64,000 nt of DNA from Candidatus Eiseniibacteriota bacterium (GCA_965224245.1 OZ245046.1:2084148-2148147), one strand, 5' to 3'. Shown: positions 3,653 to 57,312, counted from the first letter of the stretch. A program made the numbers and translations. Notes: generated by a model not told the origin, from the letters alone.

Positions 3653-3808
3653 TTAGCACTCCCTCGGCGGGGGTGAGCGACTCGGGGCCAGCGAACGCAC
3701 GACACACGGCGCCACGACGTGACCGACGGCGACGAGACGCGTTCTCCAGGGAAGGATCCGACCCGGATGTGGCACTAGCAGCCAGAGGCGGGCCGTGACC
3801 GACCCGGT

Positions 3809-3837
3809 AATGTACGGATGCGTCGAACGCCTGTCAA
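3809..3837 (-). promoter_or_regulatory. putative sigma70-type promoter upstream of metK
   Basis: On the minus strand: perfect -35 TTGACA (revcomp of 3832-3837), 17-nt spacer, -10 TACATT (revcomp of 3809-3814); about 150 nt upstream of the metK ATG. Confidence 0.4.
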
Positions 3838-3863
3838 CGGGCGCCTCCGGCTGCGGGCGCGCG

Positions 3864-5663
3864 TCAGAGCCCTCGGACCGCGGCCAGCTCGGGGAAACGG
3901 TCGGCCAGGAAACCGCCGAGGAGCGACGCGACGTCCGCGGCGGTCGACATCCGCACCGCGCGAGTGGCCACGTCCCGGCTCTCGGCGTAGGAGATGGTGC
4001 GGATCACCTGCTTCACCTCGGGCAGTAGCGAGGGCGTCATCGACAGATCGTCGATCCCCAGCCCCACCAGGAGCACGGTGGCCAGCGTGTCCGCCGCGAG
4101 CTCGCCGCACAGGCTGACCCGGCAGCCCTCCCGGTGGGCGGCCTCGACGGTGGCGTGAATGGCCCGGAGCACGCTCGGGTGCAGCGGATTGAACAGATAG
4201 CCGAGCTTGGCGTTGGTGCGATCGACGGCCAGCGCATACTGAGTCAGGTCGTTGGATCCGATGGAGAAAAAGTCCACCGAGCGAGCCAGCACGTCCGCCA
4301 TCAGCACCGCGGCCGGCGTCTCGATCATGATCCCGATCGTGACGTGCCGATCGAACTCCACCCCCGCGTTCGTGAGCTCCTGCATCACCGCGTCGAGATG
4401 TTCGCGCACGCGATCGAGCTCCTCGGGCGTCGTGATCATGGGGAACAGGAGGCGGACCGGGCCGAACGCGCTCGCCCGGAGCGCGGCGCGCAGCTGCGCG
4501 CGGAACACGTCCTCGTGTCCCAGGAGATAGCGAATCCCCCGGAGTCCGAGAAACGGGTTCTTCTCTCGATCGGCGCCGATGTACGACGCGAACTTGTCGC
4601 CGCCGACGTCGAGCGTCCGGATCACCACCGGCTTGGGCGACAGCAGCTCGAGCGCCCGCCGGTAGATCGCGAACTGCTCGTCCTCGGACGCGAGGTGCGC
4701 GCGCTGCATCAACAGGAACTCGGTGCGGAACAGTCCGACGCCGCTGGCCCCGTAGCGATGCACGGCGTCGATCTCGAGCGGCATCTCGATGTTCGCCAGG
4801 AGGTGGATCTCGCGCCCGTCGGTGGTGACCGACGGCATCTCGCGTGACAGCTCCAGACGATCCATCATCTCGGCGTAGTGACGGCGCACGCGTTCGTACC
4901 GGCGCTCGTCCTCGTCGGTGGGATCGAGGATCAGCCGACCCCGCCAGCCGTCGAGGATCGCGCGACCACCGGCCGCGGTCTCGTCCAGAAGGTTCTCGAT
5001 GCCGAACACGGCGGGTAGCCCGCGCGCGCGGGCCATGATCGCGGCGTGCGCGGTGGCGCCGCCCCGCTCGGTCGCGAGCCCCCGCGCGCTCGTGCCCGCG
5101 ACCGCCACCGTGTCGCCGGGAGTCAGCTCGCGTGCGACGATGATGGCATCCTCGGCCGACACGGTGAGCCCGTCACGATCGTCCTCGGCCAGCCGCCGCA
5201 GGACGCGCCGCTTGACGTCGCGGATGTCGGCCGCGCGCTCGCGAAACAGCCCGCTCTGCATGCGATCGAACGTCTCGAGCACGCGGAGCACGTTCTGACG
5301 GAAGGCATACCCGGCGTTCCGGCGATGCTCTCGGATGTCGGTCTCGGTCGCATCGATGGCCAGGGGGTCGCTCAGGATCATCAGCTGTGCATCGAAGATC
5401 TCGGCGGACTCCGCCCCCAGCTCCTCCACCATCGCGTCGCGCAGGCCCGAGATCTCGTCGATGACGGCGCCCACCGCGGCCCGGAAGCGATCGATCTCCG
5501 CGTCGACGCCGTCGGCCTCGATCAGGAACTCGCCCACCACGACCTCGTTGGGCTCGGCGGTCGCGATGTCGCCGATGGCGATCCCGGGGGAAACCGCGAT
5601 GCCGTGAAGCACGCGCCGGCCGCTGCCGGCGCCCCCGGCTCCGGGAGTGACGCCGGCGGTCAC
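3864..5663 (-). CDS. ptsI: phosphoenolpyruvate-protein phosphotransferase (PTS enzyme I)
   Basis: 599-aa ORF with EI motifs 'GGATAHAAIMARARGLPAV', 'GLFRTEFLL', 'FFSIGSNDLTQY', 'SLCGELA'; 4-nt overlap with the upstream HPr gene. Confidence 0.9.
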   Translation of the reverse strand: MTAGVTPGAGGAGSGRRVLHGIAVSPGIAIGDIATAEPNEVVVGEFLIEADGVDAEIDRFRAAVGAVIDEISGLRDAMVEELGAESAEIFDAQLMILSDPLAIDATETDIREHRRNAGYAFRQNVLRVLETFDRMQSGLFRERAADIRDVKRRVLRRLAEDDRDGLTVSAEDAIIVARELTPGDTVAVAGTSARGLATERGGATAHAAIMARARGLPAVFGIENLLDETAAGGRAILDGWRGRLILDPTDEDERRYERVRRHYAEMMDRLELSREMPSVTTDGREIHLLANIEMPLEIDAVHRYGASGVGLFRTEFLLMQRAHLASEDEQFAIYRRALELLSPKPVVIRTLDVGGDKFASYIGADREKNPFLGLRGIRYLLGHEDVFRAQLRAALRASAFGPVRLLFPMITTPEELDRVREHLDAVMQELTNAGVEFDRHVTIGIMIETPAAVLMADVLARSVDFFSIGSNDLTQYALAVDRTNAKLGYLFNPLHPSVLRAIHATVEAAHREGCRVSLCGELAADTLATVLLVGLGIDDLSMTPSLLPEVKQVIRTISYAESRDVATRAVRMSTAADVASLLGGFLADRFPELAAVRGL

Positions 5664-5974
5664 GACGCCCGCCCTTCGGCGGCTCGCGACTTCTCGACGT
5701 CGAGGACCTCGTCGTCGAACTCCGAGGCGAACAGACGCTCGATCGCACCGACGGCCAGCTCCTCGTCCTCGCCGTCCGCGGAGATCGTCAGACGCGTGCC
5801 CGTGATCGCGGCCAGCATCAGGATGCCCATGATGCTCTTGCAGTCGACGCTCTGGTTGGCGCCGTCGGTCAGTGCGATGCGGCTCCGGAAGCGCGCGGCC
5901 AGGCTGGCCAGCATGCTCGCCGGGCGCGTGTGGAGCCCGGGGTCGTTCAGGACGACGACGTCTCGCTCAACCAT
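5660..5974 (-). CDS. ptsH: phosphocarrier protein HPr
   Basis: Internal ATG at 5972-5974 of the listed ORF gives a 104-aa protein 'MVERDVVVLNDPGLHTRPAS...DCKSIMGILMLAAITG' with the His-15 and Ser-46 sites; the upstream part of the listed ORF is Arg-rich read-through. Confidence 0.85.
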   Translation of the reverse strand: MVERDVVVLNDPGLHTRPASMLASLAARFRSRIALTDGANQSVDCKSIMGILMLAAITGTRLTISADGEDEELAVGAIERLFASEFDDEVLDVEKSRAAEGRAS

Positions 5975-5976
5975 CG

Positions 5977-8112
5977 TCACACCCCGGCATCGTCGCCCTC
6001 GGCCGCGGTGACCGGCTCGGGGACACGTGCGTCGGTGGACAGGATCTCGAGCGACGCGCGCAACGTGACGCGGCCGCGATCGGGCACCAGCGGCCAGACC
6101 AGAAACACCCGCGTGGACTGGAACACGCGGGTCGGAGCATGTCCGTTCAGCGACACCGTCTCGATCGGGAAGCGCAGCACGCGCACCCGCGGCTCCAGCG
6201 AGACGTTGACCTCGAAGCCTCTGCGCTCGTCGACGATCCCCCACCGGTCGACGTCGGGGATCTCGTCCTCGGTCCCGATGTCGTGCGACTCGCCTTCTGC
6301 GAATCGCATGTAGCGCCCGGCGCGTCCCGGGGCGCCCAGGCCGAACGTCCACTCCGTGGCGTACTGCATCCACCCGTCCGGCAGACCGTCGGGGAACGCG
6401 AGATGCCACACGACGTCGAAGCGTGCCCGCTCGGGATCGAGAACGACCTCGCGCTCGATCTCGACCACCGAGCTCTCGACCCGGCAGTTCGCGAAGAGGC
6501 GCAGCCGACCGGGCCCCTCGCGCTCCCACTCGTAGCGGGTGCGGGCGGGCGGCGCGCTGAGGGTGCGGAGGTCCTTGATCGTGGCCAGGGTCACGTCGTC
6601 GTCGAACACGTGATCGCGGAGGCTGTACAGCGGGAAGGGATCGTAGTTCAGGTACGAGGCCAGGTCGCTCTTCGACTGGCGGCGGCGCCCGCCCTTCGAG
6701 CCCGATGCGTCATCGCGCCGCTCCCGGATCGCCGAGTGGTACGACTCCTCGCGACGTGCGACCGTGTCGCACAGGTTCACCGCCCTGGGCTTCAGGTCCA
6801 GCGCGATCAGCGTGCCGCCGTCGTGGGGCGCCAGCGTCAGCGCCAGCTCGCGGTTCTCGACCACGACCTCGTCGTCTCCGTCCAGGTCGATGTCGCGATG
6901 ACTGAAGCGCTGGAACGGCTCGTCGCCGTGCTCCATCCGATCCATCAGCTCCCAGGCGCGGATCTGGTTGGTGAACACGGCGCGACGCAGCTGCGGCGCG
7001 TACACGCCCCCGTGTACGCCGTGCCAGTACGCGCCGTGACTCAGCGAGCGCCAGACCAGTCGCCGTGCCTCGGCGACCCGTTCGGGATCGGCCCCGCGAT
7101 CCTCCAGCGCCTGCACCCGACGCAGGAGATCCAGGCCGCGCTTGTGCATCCAGTTGGCCTCGGGGTAGCGCACGAGAAAGTTGCGCCAGTAGCCCATACC
7201 GAGGAATCGATCGAGTCCGTTGCCTTCCTGCTCCAGACGCGTGCGCAGCGAGTGATGGCGGCGCTGTGCCTCGGGGGGGATGGACCACTCCATCATCTCG
7301 CCGTACGTTCCGGTGGGCAGGTAGAGCTGCCCGGCGGCCTCGACGCCCTCGACCACCTCTTCCAGCGTGCACGTCTGGAGTCGATGGTGCTCGCGCTCGA
7401 GAAGCGCGAAGAAACGGGAGAGCCAGCGTCCCTCCTGGACGCGCTCGAACGAGCCCGGCCACGCGCCGAACTTGGCGCCGTCGTCGGCGAAGACGGCCAC
7501 CCTTCCGCCGCCGGTCTGGCGCTTCAGGAGCTGCGCGACGACCTCCTCGGGCTTCGCCGCGGGGATGAGATCGCGGAGGCTCCGCGGGACCGGAAAGACG
7601 CGGATGGGCATTCCCTCGTCCTCGGTCACGAACGAGTCGTACAGGCGCTTGTCGAGCACACCGATCCGCAGAAACGGCGTGTCGTCCAGCGGCATGTACT
7701 CGATGCCCGCCTGGCCGATGACCTTGGGCAGGGACGGCTCCCAGACGCGCTCGGCGAGCCACAGCCCCCTGGGCACGACGCCGAAGGTGCGCTCGATCAG
7801 CTCCTGGTGGGCGCGGATCTGCGCGACGCGCTCGCGCTCGGGGATGATCGCGAGAATGGGTTCGAAGATCGGCGACGAGAGCAGCTCGACCTGTCCCCGG
7901 TCGACCAGCTGCGAGAGGAGCTCCACGTACGCGGGCCGGCTGGCGATGAGCCACTCGAGCAGCGAGCCCGAGTTGTGGAGAACCACGCGAATCGACGGAT
8001 GCTCGGAGATGGTCACGAGGACCGGCCAGTACGCGCGCTCGTACGCCTCCTCCACGGCGCGGCGGGACTGCCCTTCGGGCTGGTGGTTGTGCAAGCAGAA
8101 CACGAACCTCAT
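5977..8112 (-). CDS. glycoside hydrolase family 57 enzyme (4-alpha-glucanotransferase / alpha-amylase type)
   Basis: 711-aa ORF; N-terminus 'FVFCLHNHQPEG...EEAYERAYWPVL...HNSGSLLEWL...RGQVELLSSPIFEPILAIIP...WLAERVWEP' matches the GH57 catalytic domain along its length (e.g. Pyrococcus 4-alpha-glucanotransferase 'FIFGIHNHQPLG...RGQVEIVVAGFYEPVLASIP...WLTERVWQP'). Confidence 0.8.
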   Translation of the reverse strand: MRFVFCLHNHQPEGQSRRAVEEAYERAYWPVLVTISEHPSIRVVLHNSGSLLEWLIASRPAYVELLSQLVDRGQVELLSSPIFEPILAIIPERERVAQIRAHQELIERTFGVVPRGLWLAERVWEPSLPKVIGQAGIEYMPLDDTPFLRIGVLDKRLYDSFVTEDEGMPIRVFPVPRSLRDLIPAAKPEEVVAQLLKRQTGGGRVAVFADDGAKFGAWPGSFERVQEGRWLSRFFALLEREHHRLQTCTLEEVVEGVEAAGQLYLPTGTYGEMMEWSIPPEAQRRHHSLRTRLEQEGNGLDRFLGMGYWRNFLVRYPEANWMHKRGLDLLRRVQALEDRGADPERVAEARRLVWRSLSHGAYWHGVHGGVYAPQLRRAVFTNQIRAWELMDRMEHGDEPFQRFSHRDIDLDGDDEVVVENRELALTLAPHDGGTLIALDLKPRAVNLCDTVARREESYHSAIRERRDDASGSKGGRRRQSKSDLASYLNYDPFPLYSLRDHVFDDDVTLATIKDLRTLSAPPARTRYEWEREGPGRLRLFANCRVESSVVEIEREVVLDPERARFDVVWHLAFPDGLPDGWMQYATEWTFGLGAPGRAGRYMRFAEGESHDIGTEDEIPDVDRWGIVDERRGFEVNVSLEPRVRVLRFPIETVSLNGHAPTRVFQSTRVFLVWPLVPDRGRVTLRASLEILSTDARVPEPVTAAEGDDAGV

Positions 8113-8609
8113 GTGCCCTCGATCCTCTCGTTCACCGCGTGCACGCTCGGGAGCGGCACGGCATCGTCGCCCGGGAGCGCCCGAAACGTGCTTCGTATGC
8201 CGGCCGTGGCCAGGCGCTCGAACGCGGCCGCCTCGGCGCGCGTCAGCTGTAGATCGTCGCGGAAGCGCACCCGATCCGGGGCCGCGTGCAGGCCGCCGAC
8301 GTTGATCTCATGCACCCGCACCCCTCGCTCGACCAGCGCTTCGACCGCCTCGGGTCCGCGCACCAGCACCAGCGTGACCGGGGCGTCGAACCGCCCCGCC
8401 GCGTAGGCCGTGGTGAACGCGTCGATCGTGATCACCTCGACCGGAACGTCGTCGGGCGCCGATGCCTCGTACACCTCGCGCTCCCACGCGTCCGCGGCCG
8501 CGCGGTCGTCGGCCACGACGATCCGATCGAGCGCCATCGTCGGCACCCACCCGTGGGAGACCTGACCGTGAAGCAGGCGATCGTCGACCCGCACCAGTGC
8601 GATCGGCAC
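8109..8609 (-). CDS. PTS mannose-family EIIB domain protein
   Basis: 166-aa ORF starting 'MPIALVRVDDRLLHGQV', the EIIB-Man signature; ATGA overlap with the GH57 start. Confidence 0.8.
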   Translation of the reverse strand: MPIALVRVDDRLLHGQVSHGWVPTMALDRIVVADDRAAADAWEREVYEASAPDDVPVEVITIDAFTTAYAAGRFDAPVTLVLVRGPEAVEALVERGVRVHEINVGGLHAAPDRVRFRDDLQLTRAEAAAFERLATAGIRSTFRALPGDDAVPLPSVHAVNERIEGT

Positions 8610-8610
8610 G

Positions 8611-9006
8611 TCAGCCGCTCTCCGTGCGGGCGTCGTGAATCCCGCGCCGTCCCTTCATGATGACGCGCTCCACGAGCGCCCCGGCCTCCAGCCGGGCGCG
8701 ATAGTGACAGAACTCGAGCAGCATGGGAAGGTTGACCCCGGCAACACTCTGACATCGTGTGTGTTGCGAGGCCAGGAGCCGGCACGCGGTCTCGCAGCTG
8801 CCTCCCGCGAGGTCGGTGAAGAGGACCAGGTCGTCGCCCGGCCCGAGCGCCTCGATGGCGCCCTCTACCCGCTCGCGGATCGCGTCGGCCGAGAGCCCGG
8901 CGTTGGAGATGACGTTCACGCCGTCCTGGGGCCCGAGAAAGCCCTCCACCGCCTCCACGAGCGCCTCACCCACGCGGCCGTGTGTGACGAGGAGCGCGCG
9001 GATCAC
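8611..9006 (-). CDS. PTS mannose-family EIIA domain protein
   Basis: 131-aa ORF 'MIRALLVTHGRVGEAL...LVLFTDLAGGS', EIIA-Man fold signature. Confidence 0.8.
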   Translation of the reverse strand: MIRALLVTHGRVGEALVEAVEGFLGPQDGVNVISNAGLSADAIRERVEGAIEALGPGDDLVLFTDLAGGSCETACRLLASQHTRCQSVAGVNLPMLLEFCHYRARLEAGALVERVIMKGRRGIHDARTESG

Positions 9007-9046
9007 CGCCGGCCTCTCCGCCCGAGGGGCCGCGGCCCGCGGCGCG

Positions 9047-10021
9047 TCACTCGCGATCCCCGCGCGCGATGGCCTGGAACTGCAGGCGCTTCTTCTGCTC
9101 CATCGTGCGCAGAAGGCGCTCGGAGAAGGCCTGCGCCGGATTGTACCCGTAGGCCTTCACGAGATAGTTCAGCGCGATGACCTCGGCGATGACCGTGATG
9201 TTCTTGCCCGGGAAAATGGGAATCTCGACCATCGGGATCTCGACCCCGAGGATCCGGGCGGTCTTGTTCTCGAGCCCCAGACGTTCGTAGTCCTCGCTGG
9301 AGTCCCAGTCCCGGAGATTGACCTCGACCTCGACGCGCTTCTGTCCGCGGATAGCCCGGATTCCGAACACGGCCTGCACGTCGATGATCCCCAGTCCGCG
9401 GATCTCCACGTGGTGGGTGACGACCGCGTTCGAGGCCCCGATCAGGATGTTGTCCTGGACCCGCTTGATCGACACGATGTCGTCGGCGACCAGCCGGTGG
9501 CCGCGCTCGACGAGATCCAGTGCACACTCGCTCTTGCCGATGGCCGAGCGCCCGGTGAACAGGAGCCCCACGCCGTACACGTCGACCAGGCTCGCGTGCA
9601 CGCTCAGCTCGGGCGCGAACGCCTCCTCGAGGATCGCCGCCAGTCGATGCTGGAAGGTCGTCGTGCCCAGCTCGGTCTGGAACAGCGGCGTTCCCGAGCG
9701 GTTCGCCTCCTGGATGAGGAGATCCTGGGCGGACGTGGTGTGCGCCACCACCACGCACGGCATCTTGAACGAGAAGAGCCGCTCGATGGCGATGCGCTGG
9801 TTGTCGGCATCGAGCGACGACAGGTACGCCTGCTCGACCTCGCCCAGAACCTGCACGCGTTCGCTGAGGAACGACTCCCGATACCCCGCCAGAAGCAGCC
9901 CGGGTCGATTGAGGTCGGACTGGGTGATCGGGATGGGCCCCTCGACCTGCTCGGTGAGGGCGTTGAGCGAGAGCTCGGAGCGATGATCCTCATAAAACTG
10001 GGAGACGCTGATGGTCTTCAT
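9047..10021 (-). CDS. hprK: HPr kinase/phosphorylase
   Basis: 324-aa ORF with P-loop 'GRSAIGKSECALDLVERGHRLVADD' and 'HVEIRGLGII' typical of HprK. Confidence 0.9.
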   Translation of the reverse strand: MKTISVSQFYEDHRSELSLNALTEQVEGPIPITQSDLNRPGLLLAGYRESFLSERVQVLGEVEQAYLSSLDADNQRIAIERLFSFKMPCVVVAHTTSAQDLLIQEANRSGTPLFQTELGTTTFQHRLAAILEEAFAPELSVHASLVDVYGVGLLFTGRSAIGKSECALDLVERGHRLVADDIVSIKRVQDNILIGASNAVVTHHVEIRGLGIIDVQAVFGIRAIRGQKRVEVEVNLRDWDSSEDYERLGLENKTARILGVEIPMVEIPIFPGKNITVIAEVIALNYLVKAYGYNPAQAFSERLLRTMEQKKRLQFQAIARGDRE

Positions 10022-10075
10022 GGGGCTCTCTTCGGGGCCGCGTCGAGCCGTGCCCGATCGCGCCCCCGAGACGTC

Positions 10076-10447
10076 CTAGTCGGTTTCGGCGGCCTCGCCC
10101 GCCTCGGACTCGGCTTGCTTGGCCGCGATCACCGAGCTGGTCGACTCGGCCTTCTCGCGCCGATCGACGAGCTTGTTCTTGTGCTTCTTGACCTGGCGCT
10201 CGAGTCGGTCGATCGCGCCGTCGATCGACGTCACGACGTCGGTGGTCTCCTCGCGGCTCACGAGGTCGGGGCCTCCGGCCACCTTCAGCGAGATCTCGGT
10301 CTGGTAGCGGAACTTCTCCTTGGTGATCGTCACGGTGGCATCGAATATCTTGCCGAAGTAGCGATCGAGGCGCTGCAGCTTCTCCTCGGCGTGCTCGCGT
10401 GTCTTCGGACTCAGCTCGAAATGGCGTGCCGTGGTCGTGATGTCCAT
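10076..10447 (-). CDS. hpf: ribosome hibernation promoting factor (sigma-54 modulation protein)
   Basis: Start moved to the internal ATG at 10445-10447 (SD-like GGAGAGGA upstream); 'MDITTTARHFELSPKTREHAEEKLQRLDRYF' HPF/RaiA-type; position directly downstream of rpoN. Confidence 0.85.
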   Translation of the reverse strand: MDITTTARHFELSPKTREHAEEKLQRLDRYFGKIFDATVTITKEKFRYQTEISLKVAGGPDLVSREETTDVVTSIDGAIDRLERQVKKHKNKLVDRREKAESTSSVIAAKQAESEAGEAAETD

Positions 10448-10546
10448 CGGAGCGTCCTCTCCTTCTGCGACTCGATCCGCCGGGTTCTCGTCGCGTCGCG
10501 ACCGGTTCGGCGAAACACTCACACGATCGGCGACCCGATCACGCGC

Positions 10547-11956
10547 TCAGAACCGCTTCCGGTAGCGCGCGGTCGGGATGCCGAGTTGCTCACGATACTT
10601 CGCGACCGTGCGCCGCGCGATGCGCACGCCGCGGTCGCCCAGGATGTCGGCGATCTTCTGATCGGACAGCGGGCGTTGCTTGTCCTCCTCGTCGATCAGC
10701 TGCGAGATGATGTCTCGGGCGGAGCGGGCGCTCATGTCGCCGCCGTCGTGGCGGGCGATGGCGGCCGAGAAGAAGTACTTCAGCTCGAAGACCCCGCGCG
10801 GCGTCTGCACGTACTTCCCGCGGGTGACCCGGCTCACCGTGGACTCGTGCATCCCGATGCGATCGGCGATCTGGCTCAGGGTGAGCGGCTTCAGATGGCT
10901 GACACCCTTCTCGAAGAACTCGCTCTGCACGTCCACGATGCAGGTCATGACCTTGATCATCGTCTTCCGGCGCTGCTCGATCGTCTGGATGAGCCACCTC
11001 GCGCTGTTGAGCTTGCCCTCGATGTACTCGCGTGCGCCGTCGGCGTCCTTGCCGCCGCGCAGGACGCTCTCGTACGCCGAGCTGATGCGGATGCGCGGCA
11101 CGTTGCGATCGTTCAAGTAGACCTCGTACTTGCCGCTGACGCGCTCGACGACCAGATCGGGGATCACGTACCGCGGGTCCTCGGATTCGATCTCGCCGCC
11201 GGGGTTCAGGCTCAGCATGGCGAGATGATCCTTGGCCAGCTGGACGTCCTCGTCGGAGACCGACAGGGCACGGGCGATCTCGTGGTGTCGGTTCTTGAGC
11301 ATGTCGTCGTAGTGATCGTGAATGATCTGGTAGGCGAGCGTGTCGTCCTCGCCGCGAACCCGGAGCTGGATCAGGAGCCCCTCGCGGTGATCGCGCGCCC
11401 CGACGCCCGCGGGCTCGAAGGTCTGAATGACGGCCAGCACGTTCTCGAGCTGCTCGACCGTCCATCCCGACGTCTCGGCGATCGTCTCCAGCGGCTCGAC
11501 CAGGAAGCCCCGCTCGTCCAGCGATCCGATCAGGTACTCGCCGATCTCGAGCGCCTCGGCATCGCCGACGCCGAGCCGCAGCTGACCCAGGAGGTGCTCG
11601 TGCAGCGATACCTCGGTCACGCGGACCTTCTCGAAGAACTCGGTGTCCTCGGACTCGCGACGCACCGCCGCCATGTCTCGGTCGTCCTGGTAGAACTCGG
11701 CCCAGTCGGGCTCGGTGCGGTCCTCGGGACGCTCCTTGTCGTCGGGCGTCAGCTGCTCTTCCTGGACCTTCTCCGTCTCCTCGTTCTCGAGATTGAGATC
11801 GACCTCCTCGAGAATCGGGTTCGTCAGGATCTCTTCCTTGAGCATCTGCTCGAGCTCGAGCGCGGGCATCTGGAGGATCTTCAGCGCCTGCTGAAGCCGG
11901 GGGGTCATGATGAGCTGCTGGCTCTGTCGGAGCTGCAGCCCAGGCTTCATTTCCAT
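10547..11956 (-). CDS. rpoN: RNA polymerase sigma-54 factor
   Basis: Region I 'GLQLRQSQQLIMTPRLQQALKILQMP', C-terminal HTH and RpoN box 'ARRTVAKYREQLGIPTARYRKRF'; start taken at Met-28 of the listed ORF (GGAGGAA 12 nt upstream); Met-15/Met-30 are alternatives. Confidence 0.9.
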   Translation of the reverse strand: MEMKPGLQLRQSQQLIMTPRLQQALKILQMPALELEQMLKEEILTNPILEEVDLNLENEETEKVQEEQLTPDDKERPEDRTEPDWAEFYQDDRDMAAVRRESEDTEFFEKVRVTEVSLHEHLLGQLRLGVGDAEALEIGEYLIGSLDERGFLVEPLETIAETSGWTVEQLENVLAVIQTFEPAGVGARDHREGLLIQLRVRGEDDTLAYQIIHDHYDDMLKNRHHEIARALSVSDEDVQLAKDHLAMLSLNPGGEIESEDPRYVIPDLVVERVSGKYEVYLNDRNVPRIRISSAYESVLRGGKDADGAREYIEGKLNSARWLIQTIEQRRKTMIKVMTCIVDVQSEFFEKGVSHLKPLTLSQIADRIGMHESTVSRVTRGKYVQTPRGVFELKYFFSAAIARHDGGDMSARSARDIISQLIDEEDKQRPLSDQKIADILGDRGVRIARRTVAKYREQLGIPTARYRKRF

Positions 11957-12055: not shown

Positions 12056-12790
12056 CTAGAGCCGAAACGCCGCTCCCAGATAGAGCTTTCTGGCCGTGGG
12101 GTCGTTCGCGAGCTCCTCGGGCGACCCCGAGATGAGTATGCGGCCTTCGAACATCAGGTACGCTCGATCGGTCGTGTTGAGCGTCTCACGGACGTTGTGA
12201 TCGGTTATGAGCACTCCGAGACCGCGTCTCTTCAGGTCGCCGACGATCTGTTGAATATCGGCGACCGCGATCGGATCGATACCGACAAACGGTTCGTCTA
12301 GCAAGATGAAAGATGGCTTCGTCACCAGCACACGCGCGATCTCGACGCGGCGGCGTTCGCCGCCGGACAGCTGATACCCGCGACGATCCACGATGTGACC
12401 GATGTCGAGCTCCTCGAGCGCTTGCTGGAGTCGCGAGGCGCGCGCCTCGCGGTCCAGATCGAGCGTCTCCAGGATCGCCATCACGTTGTCACGCACCGTG
12501 AGTTTACGAAAAATCGAGGGCTCTTGGGCGAGATATCCAATCCCGAGCCTCGCGCGGCGATGCATGGCGAGATCGGTGATGTCGCGCCGGTCCAGGTAGA
12601 TGCGCCCGCCGTCGGGGCGCTCGTTCCCGACGATCATTCGAAACGTCGTCGTCTTGCCCGCGCCGTTGGGGCCCAAGAGCCCCACCACCTCGCCGGGCTC
12701 GACGGCGAGATCGACCTCGCGCACCGCCTCCAGCTTCCCGTACCGCTTGACGAGCTGTTCGACCTCGAGCGCTCGTGTCGTCGTGTCCAC
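12056..12790 (-). CDS. lptB: LPS export ABC transporter ATP-binding protein
   Basis: Walker A 'GPNGAGKTTTF', signature 'LSGGERRRVEIARVL', Walker B 'ILLDEPF'; GTG start at 12788-12790 chosen because the upstream listed residues are Arg-rich and the preceding gene ends at 12798. Confidence 0.85.
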   Translation of the reverse strand: MDTTTRALEVEQLVKRYGKLEAVREVDLAVEPGEVVGLLGPNGAGKTTTFRMIVGNERPDGGRIYLDRRDITDLAMHRRARLGIGYLAQEPSIFRKLTVRDNVMAILETLDLDREARASRLQQALEELDIGHIVDRRGYQLSGGERRRVEIARVLVTKPSFILLDEPFVGIDPIAVADIQQIVGDLKRRGLGVLITDHNVRETLNTTDRAYLMFEGRILISGSPEELANDPTARKLYLGAAFRL

Positions 12791-32190: not shown

Positions 32191-33072
32191 TCATCCGTAT
32201 GCGCGCCGGACGGTCTCTGTCAGCAGTCGGCGAAACGAGGCCGAAACCTTACCCGCGATCTCGGTGACCTCGTCGTGTGTGAGCTTGTGGGGCGAGAGGC
32301 CCGTGCCGAGGTTGCTGATGCACGAGATGGCCAGCACCTCCGGACCCGACAGTCGCGCCGCGATCGCCTCGGGCACGGTGGACATGCAGGCCGCATCGCC
32401 CCCCAACCACCGGTACAGCCGGACCTCGGCCGGGGTTTCGTACGAGGGACCGCGTCCGAACACGAGACACCCTTCGCGAAGCGCGATTCCGGTCGCGGCC
32501 GCCGCCTCGTGGGCGGCCGCGCGCAGACGTGGCGAGTAGAGCCAGTCACCGCCGAGTGCATCCCCACGGGCACCGCCGCGGCCCGCGGGCACGAGCGAGG
32601 CGACGTCGCCGCCGGCGATCGTCGGGGTCAGCCCGAGGCTGATGTGGTCGGCCACGAGCATCAGGCTTCCGGGCGTCAGATCCGACCGCATCGCGCCGGC
32701 CGCGTTGGTCAGCACGACGCCCCGCACCCCGAGGGCGGCCATCACGCGCACCATGTGCGTCACGGCCCCTGCGTCGTATCCCTCGTACCGATGTACGCGC
32801 CCCTGGAGCACCACGACCGGCACGCCCTCGACCCGACCCGCCACCACCCGACCCGCGTGACCGGCGACGGTGCTCACCGGCACGTGGGGCAGCGCGTCGG
32901 TCGGGACCGCGCGGGCGTCGTCCAGGGCGTCGGCGAACGGGCCCAGGCCCGAGCCGAGGACGACGCCGGCCCGGGGCTCGGCCTCGTCGGAGAGGCCGAG
33001 CGCGTCCCGCACCGCATCGGCGGTCTCACGAACCCGACGAGGCGGGACGACCCGGTCCAACGCGACCTCCAC
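32191..33072 (-). CDS. purine nucleoside phosphorylase (PNP/MTAP family)
   Basis: 'GVVLGSGLG', 'TVAGHAGRVVAGRVEGVPVVVLQGRVHRYEGY', 'CMSTVPEAIAA'. Confidence 0.85.
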   Translation of the reverse strand: MEVALDRVVPPRRVRETADAVRDALGLSDEAEPRAGVVLGSGLGPFADALDDARAVPTDALPHVPVSTVAGHAGRVVAGRVEGVPVVVLQGRVHRYEGYDAGAVTHMVRVMAALGVRGVVLTNAAGAMRSDLTPGSLMLVADHISLGLTPTIAGGDVASLVPAGRGGARGDALGGDWLYSPRLRAAAHEAAAATGIALREGCLVFGRGPSYETPAEVRLYRWLGGDAACMSTVPEAIAARLSGPEVLAISCISNLGTGLSPHKLTHDEVTEIAGKVSASFRRLLTETVRRAYG

Positions 33073-34798
33073 GTGGTCTCTGGATGCCGAACTTCTTCAT
33101 CTTGTACCGCAGGTTTCGCTCGGAGATCCCCAGCTCGCCGGCGGCGCGCGTCTGGATCCAGTCGTGCTTCTCGAGGGCCTGAACCAGCGCCGTCTGTTCG
33201 AGATCCTCGAGGGTGGCCCCGTCCAGGGAGAGCGAGCGTCCATCCCCGTCTCCGGCGGCCCGTACCTCGGGAGAGAGCAGATCGACGTCGATCGTCTCGT
33301 CCTGACTCAGCACCAGGGCGCGGGAGATCACGTTCTCGAGCTCTCGTACGTTGCCCGGCCAGTCGTACTTGCAGAGCGCATCCAGCGCGGCCGGCGTCAG
33401 CCGGCGCCCGGGGCTCTCGAACTGCTGTCCCAGCGTGGACAGAAAGTGATCGGCCAGGAGCGGGATGTCCTCGGGACGGTCGCGGAGCGCGGGCAGCGTC
33501 AGCTCGATCACCTTGAGCCGGTAGTAGAGGTCCTCGCGGAATCGCTTCTCGGCGATCGCGTTCTCCAGGTCGATGTTGGTGGCGGCGATGATCCGGACGT
33601 CCACGTCGATGGACTTGCGTCCCCCGACGCGCTCGAACTGCTTCTCCTGGACGACGCGGAGCACCTTGGCCTGCACGACGAGGCTCATGTCGCCGATCTC
33701 GTCCAGGAACAGCGTGCCTCCGTTCGCCTGCTCGAACTTCCCGGCACGCCCCTCCACACCGGTGGCGGTGCCCTTCTCGATCCCGAAGAGCTCGGACTCG
33801 ATCAACGTCTCGGGCAACGCCGCGCAGTTCACCGACACGAAGGGACCCGTGCGCGTGCCCTGGTAGTGGATGACCTTCGCGATCAGCTCCTTGCCGGTGC
33901 CGTTCTCTCCCCGGATCAAGACGCTGACCGGTTTTCGTCCCACTCGTTCGGCCAGGGCGAACACGTCGCGCATGGGTCGCGATCGGCCGATGATCCCGTG
34001 GAACGAGAACCGATCGGAGACCTCGGCGCGCAGGCGCGCGTTCTCCTCGGCCAGGCGAGATTCCTCGTGGCGCACCCGGGCGAACGCGAGGGAGTTGCGG
34101 AACGCCACGCCGGCATGGTCGCAGAACATGCGCAGGAAGGTGCGATCGGACTCGTCGAAGAGACCCTTCACCGAGCGGCTCTCGAGATACACGACGCCGT
34201 AGACCTCGCCGTCCAGCAGGATGGGCGCGGCGAGGACCGAGAGGATCTGCAGCGCGACCACGGACTGCTTCGAGCGCAGCGCGTCGTCGTCGAGCGCGTT
34301 TCGCGTGTAGTACGGCTCGCGGGTCTCGCGCACCTTCGCGACCACGGTCTGGCTGATCTCCCGCTCGGCGCCCTCGATCGTCTGCTGGTCCACGTTGCGG
34401 GCGGCCCGGATCACGAGATCGTCGCCGGCGCTCAGGAAGAAGAACCCGCGCTCGGCGCGCGAGTGCTCGATCACGAGATCCATGACCACGTCGAACAGCT
34501 CGTCCTCTTCGAGGACGGCCGACAGCGTCCGTGTCACCTCGAGGATCGTCCGCGCCATCGTCTCCGCCGCGCCGTCGCCGCCGGGCGCCTCGGTCCGGAG
34601 CTCGGGGAGCAGCGTCTCGCGTCCCTCACGCAGCAGCTGGTCCAGCCGACTCAGGGCCAGCCGGACCGTCTCGATCTCCGACCCGGTGATCGGCGCGTTC
34701 GGGTCCACCCCAGAGGCGAACTCGGCGGCCCGTCGCACGAGGCGATGCGCCTGATCGATCAGCTGGTCGAGACGCGCGAGCGCATCGGTGGACGACAT
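33026..34798 (-). CDS. sigma-54-dependent transcriptional activator (GAF sensor, AAA+ domain, Fis-type HTH)
   Basis: Internal ATG at 34796-34798 gives a 590-aa protein; Walker A 'GENGTGKE', GAFTGA-type loop 'ESELFGIEKGTATG', Walker B 'GGTLFLDEIG', C-terminal HTH; the listed ORF has an Arg-rich extension. Confidence 0.85.
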   Translation of the reverse strand: MSSTDALARLDQLIDQAHRLVRRAAEFASGVDPNAPITGSEIETVRLALSRLDQLLREGRETLLPELRTEAPGGDGAAETMARTILEVTRTLSAVLEEDELFDVVMDLVIEHSRAERGFFFLSAGDDLVIRAARNVDQQTIEGAEREISQTVVAKVRETREPYYTRNALDDDALRSKQSVVALQILSVLAAPILLDGEVYGVVYLESRSVKGLFDESDRTFLRMFCDHAGVAFRNSLAFARVRHEESRLAEENARLRAEVSDRFSFHGIIGRSRPMRDVFALAERVGRKPVSVLIRGENGTGKELIAKVIHYQGTRTGPFVSVNCAALPETLIESELFGIEKGTATGVEGRAGKFEQANGGTLFLDEIGDMSLVVQAKVLRVVQEKQFERVGGRKSIDVDVRIIAATNIDLENAIAEKRFREDLYYRLKVIELTLPALRDRPEDIPLLADHFLSTLGQQFESPGRRLTPAALDALCKYDWPGNVRELENVISRALVLSQDETIDVDLLSPEVRAAGDGDGRSLSLDGATLEDLEQTALVQALEKHDWIQTRAAGELGISERNLRYKMKKFGIQRPRGGRVGPGRPASSGS

Positions 34799-37374: not shown

Positions 37375-38505
37375 GTGCTCCGGTGCGCTCGGCGCCGCCG
37401 GTGGGGCCCTCGCGGCGCCCCTCTCCGGGCGACTGCGCCCCTCCTCGCGCTGGCGGCGACGCTCGCCGGGATCCCGCGCGAGGCGAGCGCCGGCGCGGCC
37501 GACGAGGCCGTCATCGCGCCGCTCCGGACCCGCGTCGACAACGAGCTCTATCCCCTGGCCGGCACGCGCTGGGGCGGGATCGACCTGAACCGGCGCTCCG
37601 GCTTCATCGAGTGGCAGCGCCGCAGCGCGCCTCCCGAGCTCTGGCGGGAGATCGCGCACACGTGCTCGACGCTCGTGGCGATCATGCCCACGGCCGCCGC
37701 GCGCCAGGAGCTCGTGGGGCTTCACCTGGCGGCCGCCGCGTACCCGTGGCTCCTCGATCCCGGGTTCGGCGACGACGCCTGGGCCGACATGATGGCCGCC
37801 CAGTCCCGCCTCTTCGAGGCCTGGCTGGACGTGTACCCCGACGTCCTGGATCCCGAAGGTCCCCAGCGGAGCGGCGCCCCCGGCGGCATCCGGCAGATGA
37901 CGATGGCGATGTCGGCCCTCCGCTCGACGACCCCCCCGCCTCCCTCGGAGGACGACCCCAACCCGCGCGAGCGCGTGTACTGCATCGAGTTCGCCGAGGG
38001 GGTGTCGGTCCTGGACCCGACCCTCTTCGCATGGCTCACCGTGCAGGTCATGCACACCTTCGTGGACCGCGCCACCGGGTTCGACTGTCCGTGCGTGTAC
38101 GACAACGCGATGTGCTTCTGGGTGGATCTCTTCGACGCACGTCACGACGAGCAGCCCTGGTCACCGTACGTGGAGACGGTTCGTGAGCGCGTGGCGCGGT
38201 CGTGGAGGCTCGATCGCGCTCGCATCCTGCGCTGCATCCGGCGCGGCTACGAGCAGATCGGCTCGGAGATGGACCTGGCCGGGATCGATCGCGGCGACGT
38301 GCTCGCGCTCGCGCTGGCCGGATCCGCCGAGCGCAACCGGTACCTTCGCTGGTGCGGCCTGCCCTCGAGATCGGGGACGTTCCCGGCGAATCCGGACGCG
38401 TTCTATCTGCCGTCGCCCGATGAGATCCGGGCCATCCTGGCCGGCGCCGATGCGGAGACGGTGACGTTCCCGACCCTCGACGCGTGGTGTCCGGGCGCCG
38501 AGTGA
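37375..38505 (+). CDS. hypothetical secreted protein
   Basis: Frame-1 ORF with high GC3; GTG at 37375 gives a signal-peptide-like N-terminus 'RCARRRRWGPRGAPLRATAPLLALAATLAGIPREASA'; the opposite-strand ORF 37294-38145 is Arg/Gly-rich and was rejected. Confidence 0.5.
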   Translation: MLRCARRRRWGPRGAPLRATAPLLALAATLAGIPREASAGAADEAVIAPLRTRVDNELYPLAGTRWGGIDLNRRSGFIEWQRRSAPPELWREIAHTCSTLVAIMPTAAARQELVGLHLAAAAYPWLLDPGFGDDAWADMMAAQSRLFEAWLDVYPDVLDPEGPQRSGAPGGIRQMTMAMSALRSTTPPPPSEDDPNPRERVYCIEFAEGVSVLDPTLFAWLTVQVMHTFVDRATGFDCPCVYDNAMCFWVDLFDARHDEQPWSPYVETVRERVARSWRLDRARILRCIRRGYEQIGSEMDLAGIDRGDVLALALAGSAERNRYLRWCGLPSRSGTFPANPDAFYLPSPDEIRAILAGADAETVTFPTLDAWCPGAE

Positions 38506-44545: not shown

Positions 44546-44598
44546 GCGAGGACTCCCGACGACCGCCGGCGCCGTGGATCGCGCCGGGTCGTCCGCGT

Positions 44599-45539: not shown

Positions 45540-45540
45540 G

Positions 45541-46718: not shown

Positions 46719-46851
46719 GGCTGAGCTCCCCCCTGCGCGCGCTTGCGGAATTGAGTCGGCGAGGGTAGCGTCCCGCTCGAGAGGGGTCAATCGGTCTCCC
46801 CGGCACACGCCGCAACGCGGTACGGCTCCGAACGCTCGCCCCGAGGTCGCC

Positions 46852-51289: not shown

Positions 51290-51530
51290 GCGATGCACTC
51301 CTTTTGCGTTGCTGGCACTGGACCGCCGGAGCCTCACCCGGCCGGGTCCCGCGCGCAGGCGGGCACCCTCCCGGCCGGCCGACACCCGAACGGTCGGTCG
51401 CTGGATCTCCCATGGTCGCGTCATTTGCGTCAAGTCTATCACCGGCCTCGGTTTGGTACCACATGCGCGGCCCCCATCGGGCCCCATCACGAAGTTCTCA
51501 TCCACCGGCGCGCTTGCTAGACTGCCGCGC

Positions 51531-57284: not shown

Positions 57285-57312
57285 ACCGGCGCACCCCGGC
57301 GCCCCTGGGCGC

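What the first reader, a model, noticed from the sequence alone, without database searches (positions are those of the whole stretch)
3864..11956. Transporter-less PTS (EI, HPr, HprK, soluble EIIA/EIIB of the mannose family) attached to rpoN-hpf
No EIIC or EIID permease is present, so this is a regulatory phosphorelay rather than a sugar uptake system. It occupies the slot downstream of rpoN-hpf that the nitrogen-PTS occupies in Proteobacteria, but uses mannose-family EIIA/EIIB domains and an HprK-phosphorylatable HPr (Ser-46 context 'DCKSIMGI' is present). This points to a distinct wiring of sigma-54-linked carbon signalling.
Basis: partly seen in the sequence, partly recalled or inferred. 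Interest (0 to 1): 0.4.

Follow-up and report, generated by a model that had tools for sequence, protein, structure and literature searches.

The report
Permease-less sugar-phosphorelay with embedded amylase-like gene
Next to the sigma-54 gene this bacterium keeps all the soluble parts of a mannose-type sugar phosphotransferase system, plus an amylase-like gene wedged between them, but has lost the membrane channel that its relatives still encode at that spot. It therefore most likely works as a carbon-status signalling relay rather than as a sugar importer.

Summary
On the minus strand, lptB-rpoN-hpf is followed by hprK, EIIA(Man), EIIB(Man), HPr and EI. All phospho-sites are intact, and no EIIC or EIID is found in the 64-kb window.

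It is translationally coupled between EIIB and HPr.

Comparative loci give the history:
- Relatives labelled Eisenbacteria and Latescibacterota, and other MAGs, carry rpoN-hpf-hprK-IIA-IIB-GH57-IIC-IID-HPr-EI.
- The window's clade (8 lineages) has exactly this minus IIC-IID, so the loss is derived.
- EIIA and EIIB stay under purifying selection (dN/dS about 0.27) with invariant catalytic histidines.
- The clade's GH57 has eroded catalytic motifs. The acid/base Asp is lost in 6 of 10 members. The window keeps it but lacks 20 of 89 family-invariant residues.
- Permease loss with EIIB kept recurs in other lineages. Some lineages have only hprK-GH57-HPr-EI.

rpoN-linked, permease-less PTS with HprK and EIIA(Man) is already described (Xanthomonas, Brucella; Comas 2008). 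The new elements are the retained soluble EIIB and the conserved GH57 partner.

Whether the rest of the genome lacks EIIC/EIID could not be tested.

Verdict: new variant of a known kind, moderate interest.

The parts
12056..12790 (-). lptB (LPS export ATPase). Upstream context gene of the conserved lptC-lptB-rpoN row.
   Evidence: Pfam ABC_tran E=2.2e-38. Same position in all related loci.
10547..11956 (-). rpoN (sigma-54). The longest ORF reaches 12037. The start at 11956 (MEMKPG...) fits the 461-470 aa of relatives.
   Evidence: Sigma54_AID, Sigma54_CBD and Sigma54_DBD. TIGR02395 454 bits against a cut-off of 277.
10076..10447 (-). hpf, short-form ribosome hibernation factor (123 aa from the ATG preceded by GGAGAGG).
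   Evidence: Ribosomal_S30AE E=1.2e-23. TIGR00741. Junction sequence.
9047..10021 (-). hprK, full-length HPr(Ser) kinase/phosphorylase.
   Evidence: Hpr_kinase_N and Hpr_kinase_C. TIGR00679 344 bits. P-loop GRSAIGKSE and EIRGLGIIDVQ are invariant in 8 clade members.
8611..9006 (-). Soluble EIIA of the mannose family (131 aa). The phospho-His is in VTHG.
   Evidence: PF03610 E=2.8e-17. His9 aligns with ManX His10. The His is invariant in the clade.
8109..8609 (-). Soluble EIIB of the mannose family (166 aa). The phospho-His is in DDRLLHGQV. Its start lies 1 nt after the EIIA stop.
   Evidence: PF03830 E=1.2e-38. His14 aligns with ManX His175. The motif is invariant in the clade. dN/dS is 0.27.
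5977..8112 (-). GH57-family protein of the 4-alpha-glucanotransferase/alpha-amylase type (711 aa, no signal peptide). Its start overlaps the EIIB stop (ATGA).
   Evidence: PF03065, PF09094 and PF09095. PDB 1K1W E=2.8e-98, with Glu121 and Asp211 aligned to the positions recalled as the T. litoralis catalytic Glu123/Asp214. 20 of 89 family-invariant residues are replaced.
5660..5974 (-). HPr (104 aa) with His-15 (GLHTRPA), the HprK target Ser (KSIMGI) and a clade-specific acidic C-terminal tail. Its ATG lies 2 nt after the GH57 stop.
   Evidence: PF00381 E=4.9e-23. Translation. Alignments.
3864..5663 (-). Enzyme I (ptsI, 599 aa, no GAF domain). Its GTG start overlaps the HPr stop (GTGA).
   Evidence: Three PEP-utilising domains. 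TIGR01417 552 bits. TAHAAIMARA and CGE motifs are conserved. Junction sequence.

Best explanation
The region is a reduced, permease-less form of an old gene module: lptB-rpoN-hpf-hprK-EIIA(Man)-EIIB(Man)-GH57-IIC-IID-HPr-EI. The window's lineage deleted IIC-IID and kept everything else.

Shown:
- The five phosphorelay proteins are intact and conserved.
- The five genes from EIIA to EI are translationally coupled.
- The permease genes are absent in cis throughout an 8-lineage clade.
- The loss is derived.

Inferred:
- PEP phosphorylates EI, which passes the phosphoryl group to HPr-His15, then EIIA-His9, then EIIB-His14.
- HprK phosphorylates the HPr serine in response to glycolytic metabolites and gates this flow.
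- With no sugar acceptor the relay does not drain. The phosphorylation state of HPr, EIIA and EIIB then reports the cell's PEP/pyruvate and carbon status.
- The most likely direct partner is the co-translated GH57-like protein. The precedent is E. coli HPr, which binds and histidine-phosphorylates glycogen phosphorylase.
- In this clade the GH57 protein has drifted at catalytic positions. It probably now acts mainly as an alpha-glucan-binding or regulatory subunit, linking the relay to storage-glucan metabolism, rather than as a bulk enzyme.
For: Identity and active sites.

Operon coupling: ATGA and GTGA overlaps and 1-2 nt spacers.

No IIC/IID in 64 kb.

The same permease-less order occurs in 7 further independent contigs, with GH57 identity down to 51%: L001, L083, L088, L089, L090, L091, L092.

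Relatives have IIC-IID in that slot: L085/L086, L003 and the map of 30 loci.

In a tree the clade is monophyletic (100%) and sits among permease-bearing lineages.

Purifying selection on EIIA and EIIB (dN/dS 0.28 and 0.27) is no weaker than in permease-bearing pairs, where EIIB is 0.29-0.44.

Only one EIIB(Man) protein from the 6.45-Mb source contig appeared among the EIIB homologs.

GH57 is a recurrent neighbour of hprK/ptsH/ptsI regardless of the EII parts:
- L094 and L116 are hprK-GH57-HPr-EI.
- L162 is an independent IIA-IIB-GH57-HPr-EI.
- L093, L109 and L130 are delta-proteobacterial forms.

GH57 motif erosion is limited to this clade, which lies on the longest internal branch of the GH57 tree.

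Precedents: permease-less regulatory PTS (PMC6916182, PMC2937029, PMC13104625), loss of IIB/IIC/IID from the rpoN cluster (PMC2405797), and HPr phosphorylating glycogen phosphorylase (PMC13324651).
Against: - The rest of the 6.45-Mb genome could not be searched. The one attempt failed technically.
- No direct evidence links EIIB or HPr physically to GH57. No fusions were seen in the homolog lists, and no residue specific to PTS-linked GH57 was found.
- Only 11 of 80 sampled GH57 homologs are PTS- or rpoN-linked, so the family as a whole does not depend on the PTS.
- The window's own GH57 keeps both catalytic carboxylates, so it may still be an active enzyme.
- dN/dS estimates are crude: Nei-Gojobori method, GC3 about 0.9, and dS partly saturated.
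- Deep nodes of the tree are weakly supported (26-63%).
Confidence: 0.55

Rival explanations
1. An ordinary sugar-uptake PTS whose membrane subunits are encoded elsewhere. EIIA and EIIB serve IIC/IID genes at another locus, and GH57 processes the imported or stored glucoside.
For: EIIB(Man) has no established role other than phosphorylating sugar bound to IIC/IID. EIIA and EIIB are under purifying selection. Relatives use the same proteins with IIC/IID. The rest of the genome was not searched.
Against: In every permease-bearing locus seen here, IIC-IID lie directly beside IIA/IIB. The deletion is clean: 2 nt separate GH57 and HPr. It is stable across 8 lineages. Permease loss with EIIB kept recurs independently in L162, L052/L040 and L058/L036. 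No second EIIB(Man) from the same contig was detected.
Confidence: 0.17
2. A soluble PTS-dependent kinase. The GH57-like protein has taken over from IIC/IID as the sugar-holding partner. EIIB~P then phosphorylates glucose or a malto-oligosaccharide bound to it in the cytoplasm, as the EIIA(Man)-like DhaM energises dihydroxyacetone kinase.
For: The EIIB stop and GH57 start overlap. The adjacency is conserved across phyla. GH57 in this clade has lost hydrolase-type constraints but gained new invariant residues such as R495L, K554R and M326G, and keeps the nucleophile Glu. EIIB keeps its phospho-His.
Against: There is no precedent for EIIB(Man) acting on a soluble protein-bound sugar. In L094 and L116, GH57 sits with HprK, HPr and EI without any EIIB, so the GH57 link does not need EIIB. 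No structural or co-evolution test could be run.
Confidence: 0.08
3. Decaying remnants. After the permease was lost, EIIA, EIIB and GH57 are no longer needed and are drifting toward pseudogenes. Only HprK, HPr and EI are functional.
For: EIIB is the fastest-evolving protein of the cluster: 39-50% identity between the window and the other clade members, against 69-77% for HprK. GH57 has lost family-invariant residues, including the acid/base Asp in 6 of 10 members. L089 and L092 have substitutions at two otherwise invariant EIIB positions. Lineages exist with no EII parts at all (L094, L116).
Against: All 8-10 lineages keep full-length ORFs at dS of about 0.8 to 2. dN/dS is 0.12-0.42, not near 1. 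EIIB evolves equally fast where the permease is present. The phospho-His motifs are invariant. GH57 shows new clade-wide invariant residues.
Confidence: 0.05

Closest known systems
Proteobacterial nitrogen PTS (rpoN-hpf-ptsN-rapZ-npr; EI-Ntr/NPr/EIIA-Ntr)
   Same: Same genomic slot directly downstream of lptB-rpoN-hpf (E. coli locus). It is a phosphorelay without a permease that acts through protein-protein contacts (PMC13104625).
   Different: The window has no EIIA-Ntr (PF00359), no RapZ and no GAF-containing EI. HPr scores far below the NPr model: 48.6 bits against a cut-off of 119. It uses mannose-family EIIA and EIIB plus HprK, and carries a GH57 gene.
Incomplete PTS with HprK and EIIA(Man): Xanthomonas campestris XC_1304-1310, Brucella melitensis, alpha- and beta-proteobacteria
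   Same: EI, HPr, HprK and EIIA(Man) without a permease. In Xanthomonas the cluster is next to rpoN/hpf. A regulatory role was shown genetically (PMC6916182, PMC2937029, PMC13104625).
   Different: Those systems lack EIIB and have ptsN and a rapZ-like gene in the cluster. None has a GH57 gene. The window's lineage is not proteobacterial by context: its nearest relatives are labelled Eisenbacteria.
Ancestral rpoN-linked mannose-class PTS proposed for Proteobacteria (Desulfovibrio vulgaris type; Comas et al. 2008, PMC2405797)
   Same: An rpoN cluster carrying hprK, IIA(Man), IIB, IIC, IID, HPr and EI, with later loss of the EII parts in most lineages. The delta-proteobacterial loci L093 and L109 show this cluster.
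   Different: The paper covers Proteobacteria only and does not mention GH57. Here the loss stopped after IIC-IID, leaving EIIB. The module extends to MAGs labelled Eisenbacteria, Latescibacterota, Endomicrobia and Hydrogenedentes.
Canonical mannose PTS (E. coli ManXYZ)
   Same: The EIIA and EIIB domains are homologous, with the phospho-histidines aligned to His10 and His175 of ManX.
   Different: No ManY or ManZ equivalents. EIIA and EIIB are separate small proteins. They score below the TIGRFAM transporter cut-offs: 52.5 against 98 and 100.6 against 164.
Thermococcus litoralis 4-alpha-glucanotransferase (GH57; PDB 1K1W)
   Same: Same three-domain architecture. E=2.8e-98 over residues 2-510. 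Both catalytic carboxylates align in the window protein.
   Different: 20 of 89 family-invariant residues are replaced in the window protein, including Glu213 of DDGEKFG and much of the [15 protein letters not shown] motif. Most clade members lack the acid/base Asp. The gene is embedded in a PTS operon.
HPr control of E. coli glycogen phosphorylase
   Same: A general PTS protein binds and histidine-phosphorylates an alpha-glucan-degrading enzyme (PMC13324651; also PMC11046441). This gives a working model for a PTS to GH57 link.
   Different: A different enzyme family (GT35 phosphorylase rather than GH57). There is no gene linkage in E. coli. No interaction has been shown here.

Membership tests
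Mannose-family PTS Enzyme II complex | EIIA(Man) domain with the N-terminal phospho-histidine | tested here: met
   PF03610 E=2.8e-17. His9 aligns with ManX His10.
Mannose-family PTS Enzyme II complex | EIIB(Man) domain with the phospho-histidine in the DDRLxHGQV motif | tested here: met
   PF03830 E=1.2e-38. His14 aligns with ManX His175.
Mannose-family PTS Enzyme II complex | Membrane subunits IIC (PF03609) and IID (PF03613) encoded with IIA/IIB | tested here: not met
   No hit in the cluster or in the six-frame translation of the 64-kb window. The same HMMs hit 71 and 69 related loci. The rest of the genome was not searched.
Proteobacterial nitrogen PTS (PTS-Ntr) | EIIA-Ntr (PtsN, PF00359) as terminal acceptor, encoded after hpf | tested here: not met
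   No PF00359 protein in the window. tblastn with E. coli PtsN found it in the delta-type loci but not in the window.
Proteobacterial nitrogen PTS (PTS-Ntr) | [quoted passage not shown] | tested here: not met
   In EI, PEP-utilisers_N begins at residue 20, so there is no GAF domain. The PtsP-type model NF008283 scores 389 bits against a cut-off of 583, and the NPr model 48.6 against 119.
Proteobacterial nitrogen PTS (PTS-Ntr) | Location directly downstream of rpoN-hpf | tested here: met
   Gene order, compared with E. coli rpoN-hpf-ptsN-rapZ-npr.
Incomplete regulatory PTS with HprK and EIIA(Man) (Xanthomonas/Brucella type) | HprK, an HPr with both His-15 and Ser-46 sites, EIIA(Man) and EI, with no permease in the cluster | tested here: met
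   Published description in PMC6916182 and PMC2937029.
Incomplete regulatory PTS with HprK and EIIA(Man) (Xanthomonas/Brucella type) | No EIIB; EIIA(Man) is the terminal acceptor | tested here: not met
   A conserved EIIB(Man) with its phospho-His is present and under purifying selection.
GH57 4-alpha-glucanotransferase/alpha-amylase (T. litoralis type) | GH57 catalytic domain plus the AmyA middle and C-terminal domains | tested here: met
   PF03065, PF09094 and PF09095. PDB 1K1W E=2.8e-98.
GH57 4-alpha-glucanotransferase/alpha-amylase (T. litoralis type) | Catalytic nucleophile Glu and acid/base Asp | tested here: met
   Glu121 and Asp211 of the window protein align with Glu123 and Asp214 of 1K1W. 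That these are the catalytic pair is from memory of the T. litoralis structure paper. The Asp is lost in 6 of 10 clade members.
GH57 4-alpha-glucanotransferase/alpha-amylase (T. litoralis type) | Conservation of the family's invariant motif residues, as a proxy for enzyme activity | tested here: inconclusive
   The window keeps 69 of 89 columns that are at least 97% conserved in 110 homologs. Permease-linked relatives keep 83-88. Activity needs an assay.
HPr kinase/phosphorylase | N- and C-terminal domains, P-loop and the EIRGxGIIDV signature | tested here: met
   PF02603 and PF07475. TIGR00679 above its cut-off. Motifs shown.

The most novel reading that the evidence does not exclude
In this clade the GH57-like protein has lost hydrolase constraints and replaced the IIC/IID membrane subunits as the partner of EIIB~P. 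It would act in one of two ways. It could be a soluble sugar-presenting subunit, making a PEP-dependent cytoplasmic glucose or maltodextrin kinase. Or it could be an alpha-glucan sensor whose ligand state sets the phosphorylation level of the relay, and through HPr/HprK the sigma-54 and hibernation neighbourhood. Repeated retention of soluble EIIA-EIIB(Man) after permease loss in several phyla would then reflect a general, undescribed permease-independent function of EIIB(Man).
Probability: 0.12. Interest if true: 0.8.

Novelty: new variant of a known kind. Interest (0 to 1): 0.5.

Why it matters
Permease-less PTS relays are known regulators, but their outputs outside Proteobacteria and Firmicutes are largely unknown.

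This locus offers a natural reduction series of one module across phyla:
1. complete,
2. minus IIC-IID,
3. minus all EII parts.

One constant non-PTS member runs through the series, a GH57 alpha-glucan enzyme. That points to storage-glucan metabolism as a conserved output or input of the HprK/HPr relay. The same theme was recently shown in E. coli with a different enzyme, where HPr phosphorylates glycogen phosphorylase.

The locus also shows that soluble EIIB(Man) is kept and constrained after its only known partner is gone. This is directly testable with purified proteins.

The catalytic-site erosion of GH57 in exactly this clade is a candidate case of an enzyme turning into a regulatory pseudoenzyme.

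Tried and rejected
- **Source look-up.** Looking up the window's GH57 and EIIB in the contig index found nothing on record. The cluster-member look-up gave no names or accessions, only that the proteins come from one 6,451,234-bp contig. The GTDB-representative scan did not return the window's own species.
- **Genome-wide IIC/IID check.** I searched the protein database with a concatenated IIC+IID from L085, hoping to spot hits from the 6.45-Mb contig. It failed technically: 8000 low-complexity candidates, none scored, not even the query's own source proteins. It is uninformative, not negative evidence.
- **Second EIIA(Man)-like hit.** A tblastn hit at 51707-52009 (E=3.8e-4) translates to low-complexity Arg/Gly/Ser-rich sequence, in a stretch largely without a confident gene call and just upstream of, and slightly overlapping on the opposite strand, the rpiB-like gene. 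Rejected as spurious.
- **Sigma-54 promoter consensus.** The scan found 16 matches against 13 expected, and none upstream of the cluster genes.
- **Sigma-70 and terminator scan.** It found only a promoter-like site upstream of metK, and stem-loops inside the GH57 coding sequence.
- **Rfam.** No match in the window.
- **Residues specific to PTS-linked GH57.** I looked for residues such as a conserved His conserved in both the permease-linked set and the window's permease-less clade but not in other homologs. Only one Trp/Tyr position turned up.
- **EIIB relaxation after permease loss.** Not seen.
- **Universal PTS linkage of the GH57 subfamily.** Two arbitrary look-ups were both PTS-linked, which suggested it. 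The 80-locus sample corrected this to 11 of 80.
- **Literature.** Searches for 'DUF1926' and for GH57 together with PTS found no description of the synteny.

Full report
**1. What is in the sequence**

The window has about 69% G+C, so raw ORF lists are crowded with spurious frames. Frames were chosen by third-position GC and by family matches.

On the minus strand, read in the direction of transcription, the row is:
- kdsB, pyrG, kdsA, kdsD, a lipid A acyltransferase, lptC, lptB (12056-12790)
- rpoN (10547-11956)
- hpf (10076-10447)
- hprK (9047-10021)
- EIIA(Man) (8611-9006)
- EIIB(Man) (8109-8609)
- a GH57 protein (5977-8112)
- HPr (5660-5974)
- EI (3864-5663)
- metK, ftsK

This rests. Every assignment has a strong Pfam or NCBIfam match.

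The phospho-sites are in place:
- EIIA His9 aligns with ManX His10, and EIIB His14 with ManX His175.
- HPr has GLHTRPA and KSIMGI.
- HprK has its P-loop and signature motif, and EI has TAHAAIMARA and CGE.

The junctions show one translationally coupled unit from EIIA to EI:
- EIIA TGA-C-GTG EIIB
- EIIB/GH57 overlap ATGA
- GH57 TGA-CG-ATG HPr
- HPr/EI overlap GTGA

It left out the 2.1-kb GH57 gene in the middle.

**2. No permease in the window**

- tblastn with E. coli ManY and ManZ finds nothing.
- HMMs for IIC and IID, built iteratively from related loci, detect 71 and 69 of those loci. They find nothing at E<=10 in the six-frame translation of the 64-kb window.
- Pfam scans of the other predicted genes show housekeeping functions and no PTS permease.
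- A weak second EIIA-like tblastn hit at 51707-52009 is low-complexity noise.

The rest of the genome could not be examined. The window's proteins come from a single 6,451,234-bp contig. The one indirect attempt failed for technical reasons. A weak indirect point remains: among 64 EIIB(Man) homologs found, only the window's own protein comes from that contig.

**3. Where it comes from**

A scan of species-representative genomes with an EIIB alignment, look-ups of contigs encoding homologs and a context map give a consistent picture.

- **Complete form.** The order is lptB-rpoN-hpf-hprK-EIIA-EIIB-GH57-IIC-IID-HPr-EI. It occurs in MAGs labelled Eisenbacteria (L017, L038, L057, L073), in a Latescibacterota MAG (L027), in several unclassified MAGs (L003, L025, L045, L055) and in L085/L086. 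In L085/L086 the called genes after GH57 are a 233-aa PF03609 protein and a 230-aa PF03613 protein. In L003 the ORF after GH57 matches PF03609.
- **Endomicrobia** loci have IIAB-GH57-IIC-IID-HPr-EI.
- **Gemmatimonadota** loci have hprK-EIIA-EIIB-IIC-IID-HPr-EI without GH57.
- **Permease-less form.** In the window and seven further independent contigs (L001, L083/L084, L088, L089, L090, L091, L092), GH57 runs straight into HPr.

These eight form a clade that is deep but coherent. GH57 identity to the window is 51-60%, and the next homolog is at 39%. RpoN identity within the clade is 70-92%. A neighbour-joining tree of HprK+EIIA+EIIB recovers the clade with 100% bootstrap. It is sister (63%) to the Eisenbacteria-labelled complete clusters, with other permease-bearing lineages outside. 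Deep nodes are weak. Whatever their order, every neighbouring lineage has IIC-IID in that slot, so a single loss in the clade's ancestor is the simplest reading.

**4. Are the leftover parts still in use?**

The phosphorelay motifs are invariant in all eight permease-less lineages.

For the closest pair (L001/L083, dS 0.4-0.9), dN/dS is as follows:

| Protein | dN/dS |
|---|---|
| HprK | 0.08 |
| EI | 0.15 |
| HPr | 0.16 |
| GH57 | 0.22 |
| EIIB | 0.27 |
| EIIA | 0.28 |

Pairs that keep the permease give EIIB 0.29-0.44 and EIIA 0.30-0.65. At matched HprK identity, EIIB is about as divergent with or without the permease. These estimates are crude because of strong GC3 bias and the Nei-Gojobori method. 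They argue against neutral decay and against relaxation after the loss. Two members (L089, L092) do have substitutions at two otherwise invariant EIIB positions.

**5. The GH57 protein**

It matches the Thermococcus litoralis 4-alpha-glucanotransferase (PDB 1K1W) at E=2.8e-98. Glu121 and Asp211 align with Glu123 and Asp214 of that enzyme. That those are the catalytic nucleophile and acid/base is from my memory of the structure paper. The first catalytic motif starts at residue 8, so there is no signal peptide and the protein is cytoplasmic.

The clade's GH57 proteins have lost residues that are invariant elsewhere.
- Of 89 columns at least 97% conserved in 110 other homologs, permease-linked relatives keep 83-88. 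The clade keeps 62-76, and the window keeps 69.
- The acid/base Asp is replaced in 6 of 10 clade members: ADAIEKFG, ADAGEKFG, ADVGEKFG, ADGGERFG, AGPGEAFG and ADVAEKFG.
- The window keeps it but has FADDGAKFG, where the Glu is invariant in the other 129 sequences. Its last motif is also heavily altered: SLSHGAYWHGVHGGVYAPQLR against [20 protein letters not shown].
- The nucleophile Glu is kept in all.
- New clade-wide invariant residues appear, such as Arg495 to Leu and Lys554 to Arg.
- The clade sits on the longest internal branch of the GH57 tree.

Full-length ORFs and low dN/dS rule out pseudogenes. This looks like a change of function.

Permease loss alone does not require this erosion. 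L162 is an independent EIIA-EIIB-GH57-HPr-EI locus with canonical GH57 motifs.

**6. How general is the GH57-PTS link?**

- Two homologs looked up at random were both linked. L093 (a delta-proteobacterial MAG) has GH57-kdsC-lptC-lptA-lptB-rpoN-hpf-ptsN-hprK-rapZ-EIIA-EIIB-IIC-IID-HPr. L094 (Hydrogenedentes) has hpf-hprK-GH57-HPr-EI with no EII part at all.
- A broader sample of 80 metagenome loci gives 11 that are PTS- or rpoN-linked. Many of those contigs are short, so this is a lower bound. The link is clearly not universal.
- Soluble EIIA-EIIB pairs without adjacent IIC/IID also follow rpoN-hpf-hprK in Thermodesulfobacteriota-type loci (L052, L040) and in L058 (Calditrichaeota label) and L036. 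In the last two the next gene is mlaD-like.

Permease loss with EIIB kept has therefore happened several times. GH57 travels with hprK/ptsH/ptsI whether or not EII parts are present.

**7. Mechanism**

Shown:
- The relay's parts are present and conserved.
- The genes are translationally coupled.
- No acceptor permease is encoded in cis.
- The state is derived.

Inferred:
- The phosphoryl group passes from PEP to EI, HPr-His, EIIA-His and EIIB-His.
- HprK gates the flow at the HPr serine.
- The relay has no sugar drain, so the phosphorylation state reports PEP/pyruvate and glycolytic status.

The co-inherited GH57-like protein is the best candidate partner. The analogy is E. coli HPr, which binds and histidine-phosphorylates glycogen phosphorylase (PMC13324651; PMC11046441). 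I put 0.55 on the regulatory-relay reading as a whole. The GH57-partner step alone is less certain.

Rivals are:
- a permease encoded elsewhere (0.17)
- a soluble PTS-dependent kinase with GH57 as the sugar holder (0.08)
- decay (0.05)

**8. Comparison with what is known**

The slot is the one that ptsN-rapZ-npr occupies in E. coli. The defining PTS-Ntr parts are nevertheless absent: EIIA-Ntr, a GAF-containing EI, and NPr.

The closest described systems are the incomplete PTS of Xanthomonas campestris, Brucella and the alpha-proteobacteria. The Xanthomonas cluster is ptsI-ptsH-EIIA(Man)-rapZ-like-hprK-ptsN-hpf by rpoN, with no EIIB or EIIC (PMC6916182). The others are described in PMC2937029 and PMC13104625.

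Comas et al. (PMC2405797) already proposed an ancestral proteobacterial rpoN cluster with hprK, ptsI, ptsO, ptsN and IIA(Man). They noted a putative mannose-class transporter in the D. vulgaris cluster and suggested that IIB, IIC and IID were lost in most lineages.

The present locus extends that scheme beyond Proteobacteria. It shows an intermediate state with EIIB retained, and it adds GH57 as a conserved member. I found no paper describing the GH57-PTS synteny, but the searchable library is incomplete.

**9. Verdict**

- It is a new variant of a known kind.
- Interest is moderate (0.5). The concept is known, but three things are new and testable: the reduction series, the constrained orphan EIIB, and the GH57 partner with eroded catalytic motifs.

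**Caveats**

- Taxon labels are those of MAG records. At least one, 'Saccharimonadales' for L006/L085, is doubtful for a locus carrying LPS-transport (lptB/lptC) and rpoN genes.

Noticed in passing
window 5660-5725 (C-terminus of HPr, minus strand): HPr of the permease-less clade is 103-104 aa and ends in a conserved acidic tail, S(E/G)F(D/E)(D/E)xV(L/M)xxE(K/R)(S/E/T)(R/K). The tail is absent from the 77-90-aa HPr of permease-bearing relatives, from L162 and from L094. It could be a new binding surface gained around the time IIC-IID were lost.
   Followed up: partly
window 33026-34798 (-): A sigma-54-dependent enhancer-binding protein with GAF, AAA+ (Sigma54_activat) and HTH_8 domains lies 21 kb from rpoN. 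It has no PRD or PTS domain. In L058 a sigma-54 activator gene lies about 3 kb downstream of EIIB.
   Followed up: no
window 10076-10522 (-), compared with L085 3418-3951: The window's clade has a short HPF (119-135 aa, S30AE domain only). The permease-bearing relatives L085 and L093, and the EII-less L094, have the long form with the C-terminal dimerisation domain PF16321.
   Followed up: no
window 41365-47949: A nucleoside-salvage block: a PnrA/Bmp-type ABC transporter (binding protein, double ATPase, two permeases), thymidine kinase, uridine kinase, deoxynucleoside kinase, a phosphoribosyltransferase and adenosine deaminase. A sigma-54-like -24/-12 match with 2 mismatches (TGGCACGCGCGTTCCG, 43944-43959) lies about 30 nt upstream of the binding-protein gene. 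Such matches are no more frequent in the window than expected by chance.
   Followed up: partly
window 49511-51298 (-): A large secreted-looking protein with repeated lamin-tail domains (LTD). The opposite strand carries long spurious ORFs typical of the high G+C content.
   Followed up: no
window 56328-64000 (+) and 37375-38505 (+): Five sizeable predicted proteins (318, 663, 486, at least 290, and 376 aa) have no Pfam match at E<=1e-5. A neighbouring 653-aa protein matches only an NHL repeat. All have strong coding signal, with GC3 of 0.92-0.94.
   Followed up: no
window 3653-3863 (between EI and metK, minus strand): A 210-nt intergenic region holds the only good sigma-70-like promoter of the region (TTGACA-17-TACATT at 3837-3809), upstream of metK. 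No SAM riboswitch or other Rfam family was detected.
   Followed up: partly
L052 32-1957, L051 9-1622, L093 10001-12097, L098, L109, L130: In delta-proteobacterial and Thermodesulfobacteriota loci the same GH57 type sits at the upstream end of the kdsC-lptC-lptA-lptB-rpoN-hpf-ptsN-hprK-rapZ-EIIA-EIIB row instead of between EIIB and IIC. The association with the rpoN/PTS row therefore holds in two different arrangements.
   Followed up: partly
L003 12835-14466: In several Eisenbacteria-type loci the region after GH57 reads as one long ORF with an IIC-like N-terminal half and an IID-like C-terminal half. This is a possible natural IIC-IID fusion. Only the IIC half reaches Pfam significance.
   Followed up: partly
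whole window /: The scan of 185,579 species-representative genomes returned no member of the window's clade, although the search pattern matches the window's EIIB. The clade is known here only from metagenome contigs, one NCBI MAG (GCA_975963955.1) and the unnamed 6.45-Mb contig.
   Followed up: no
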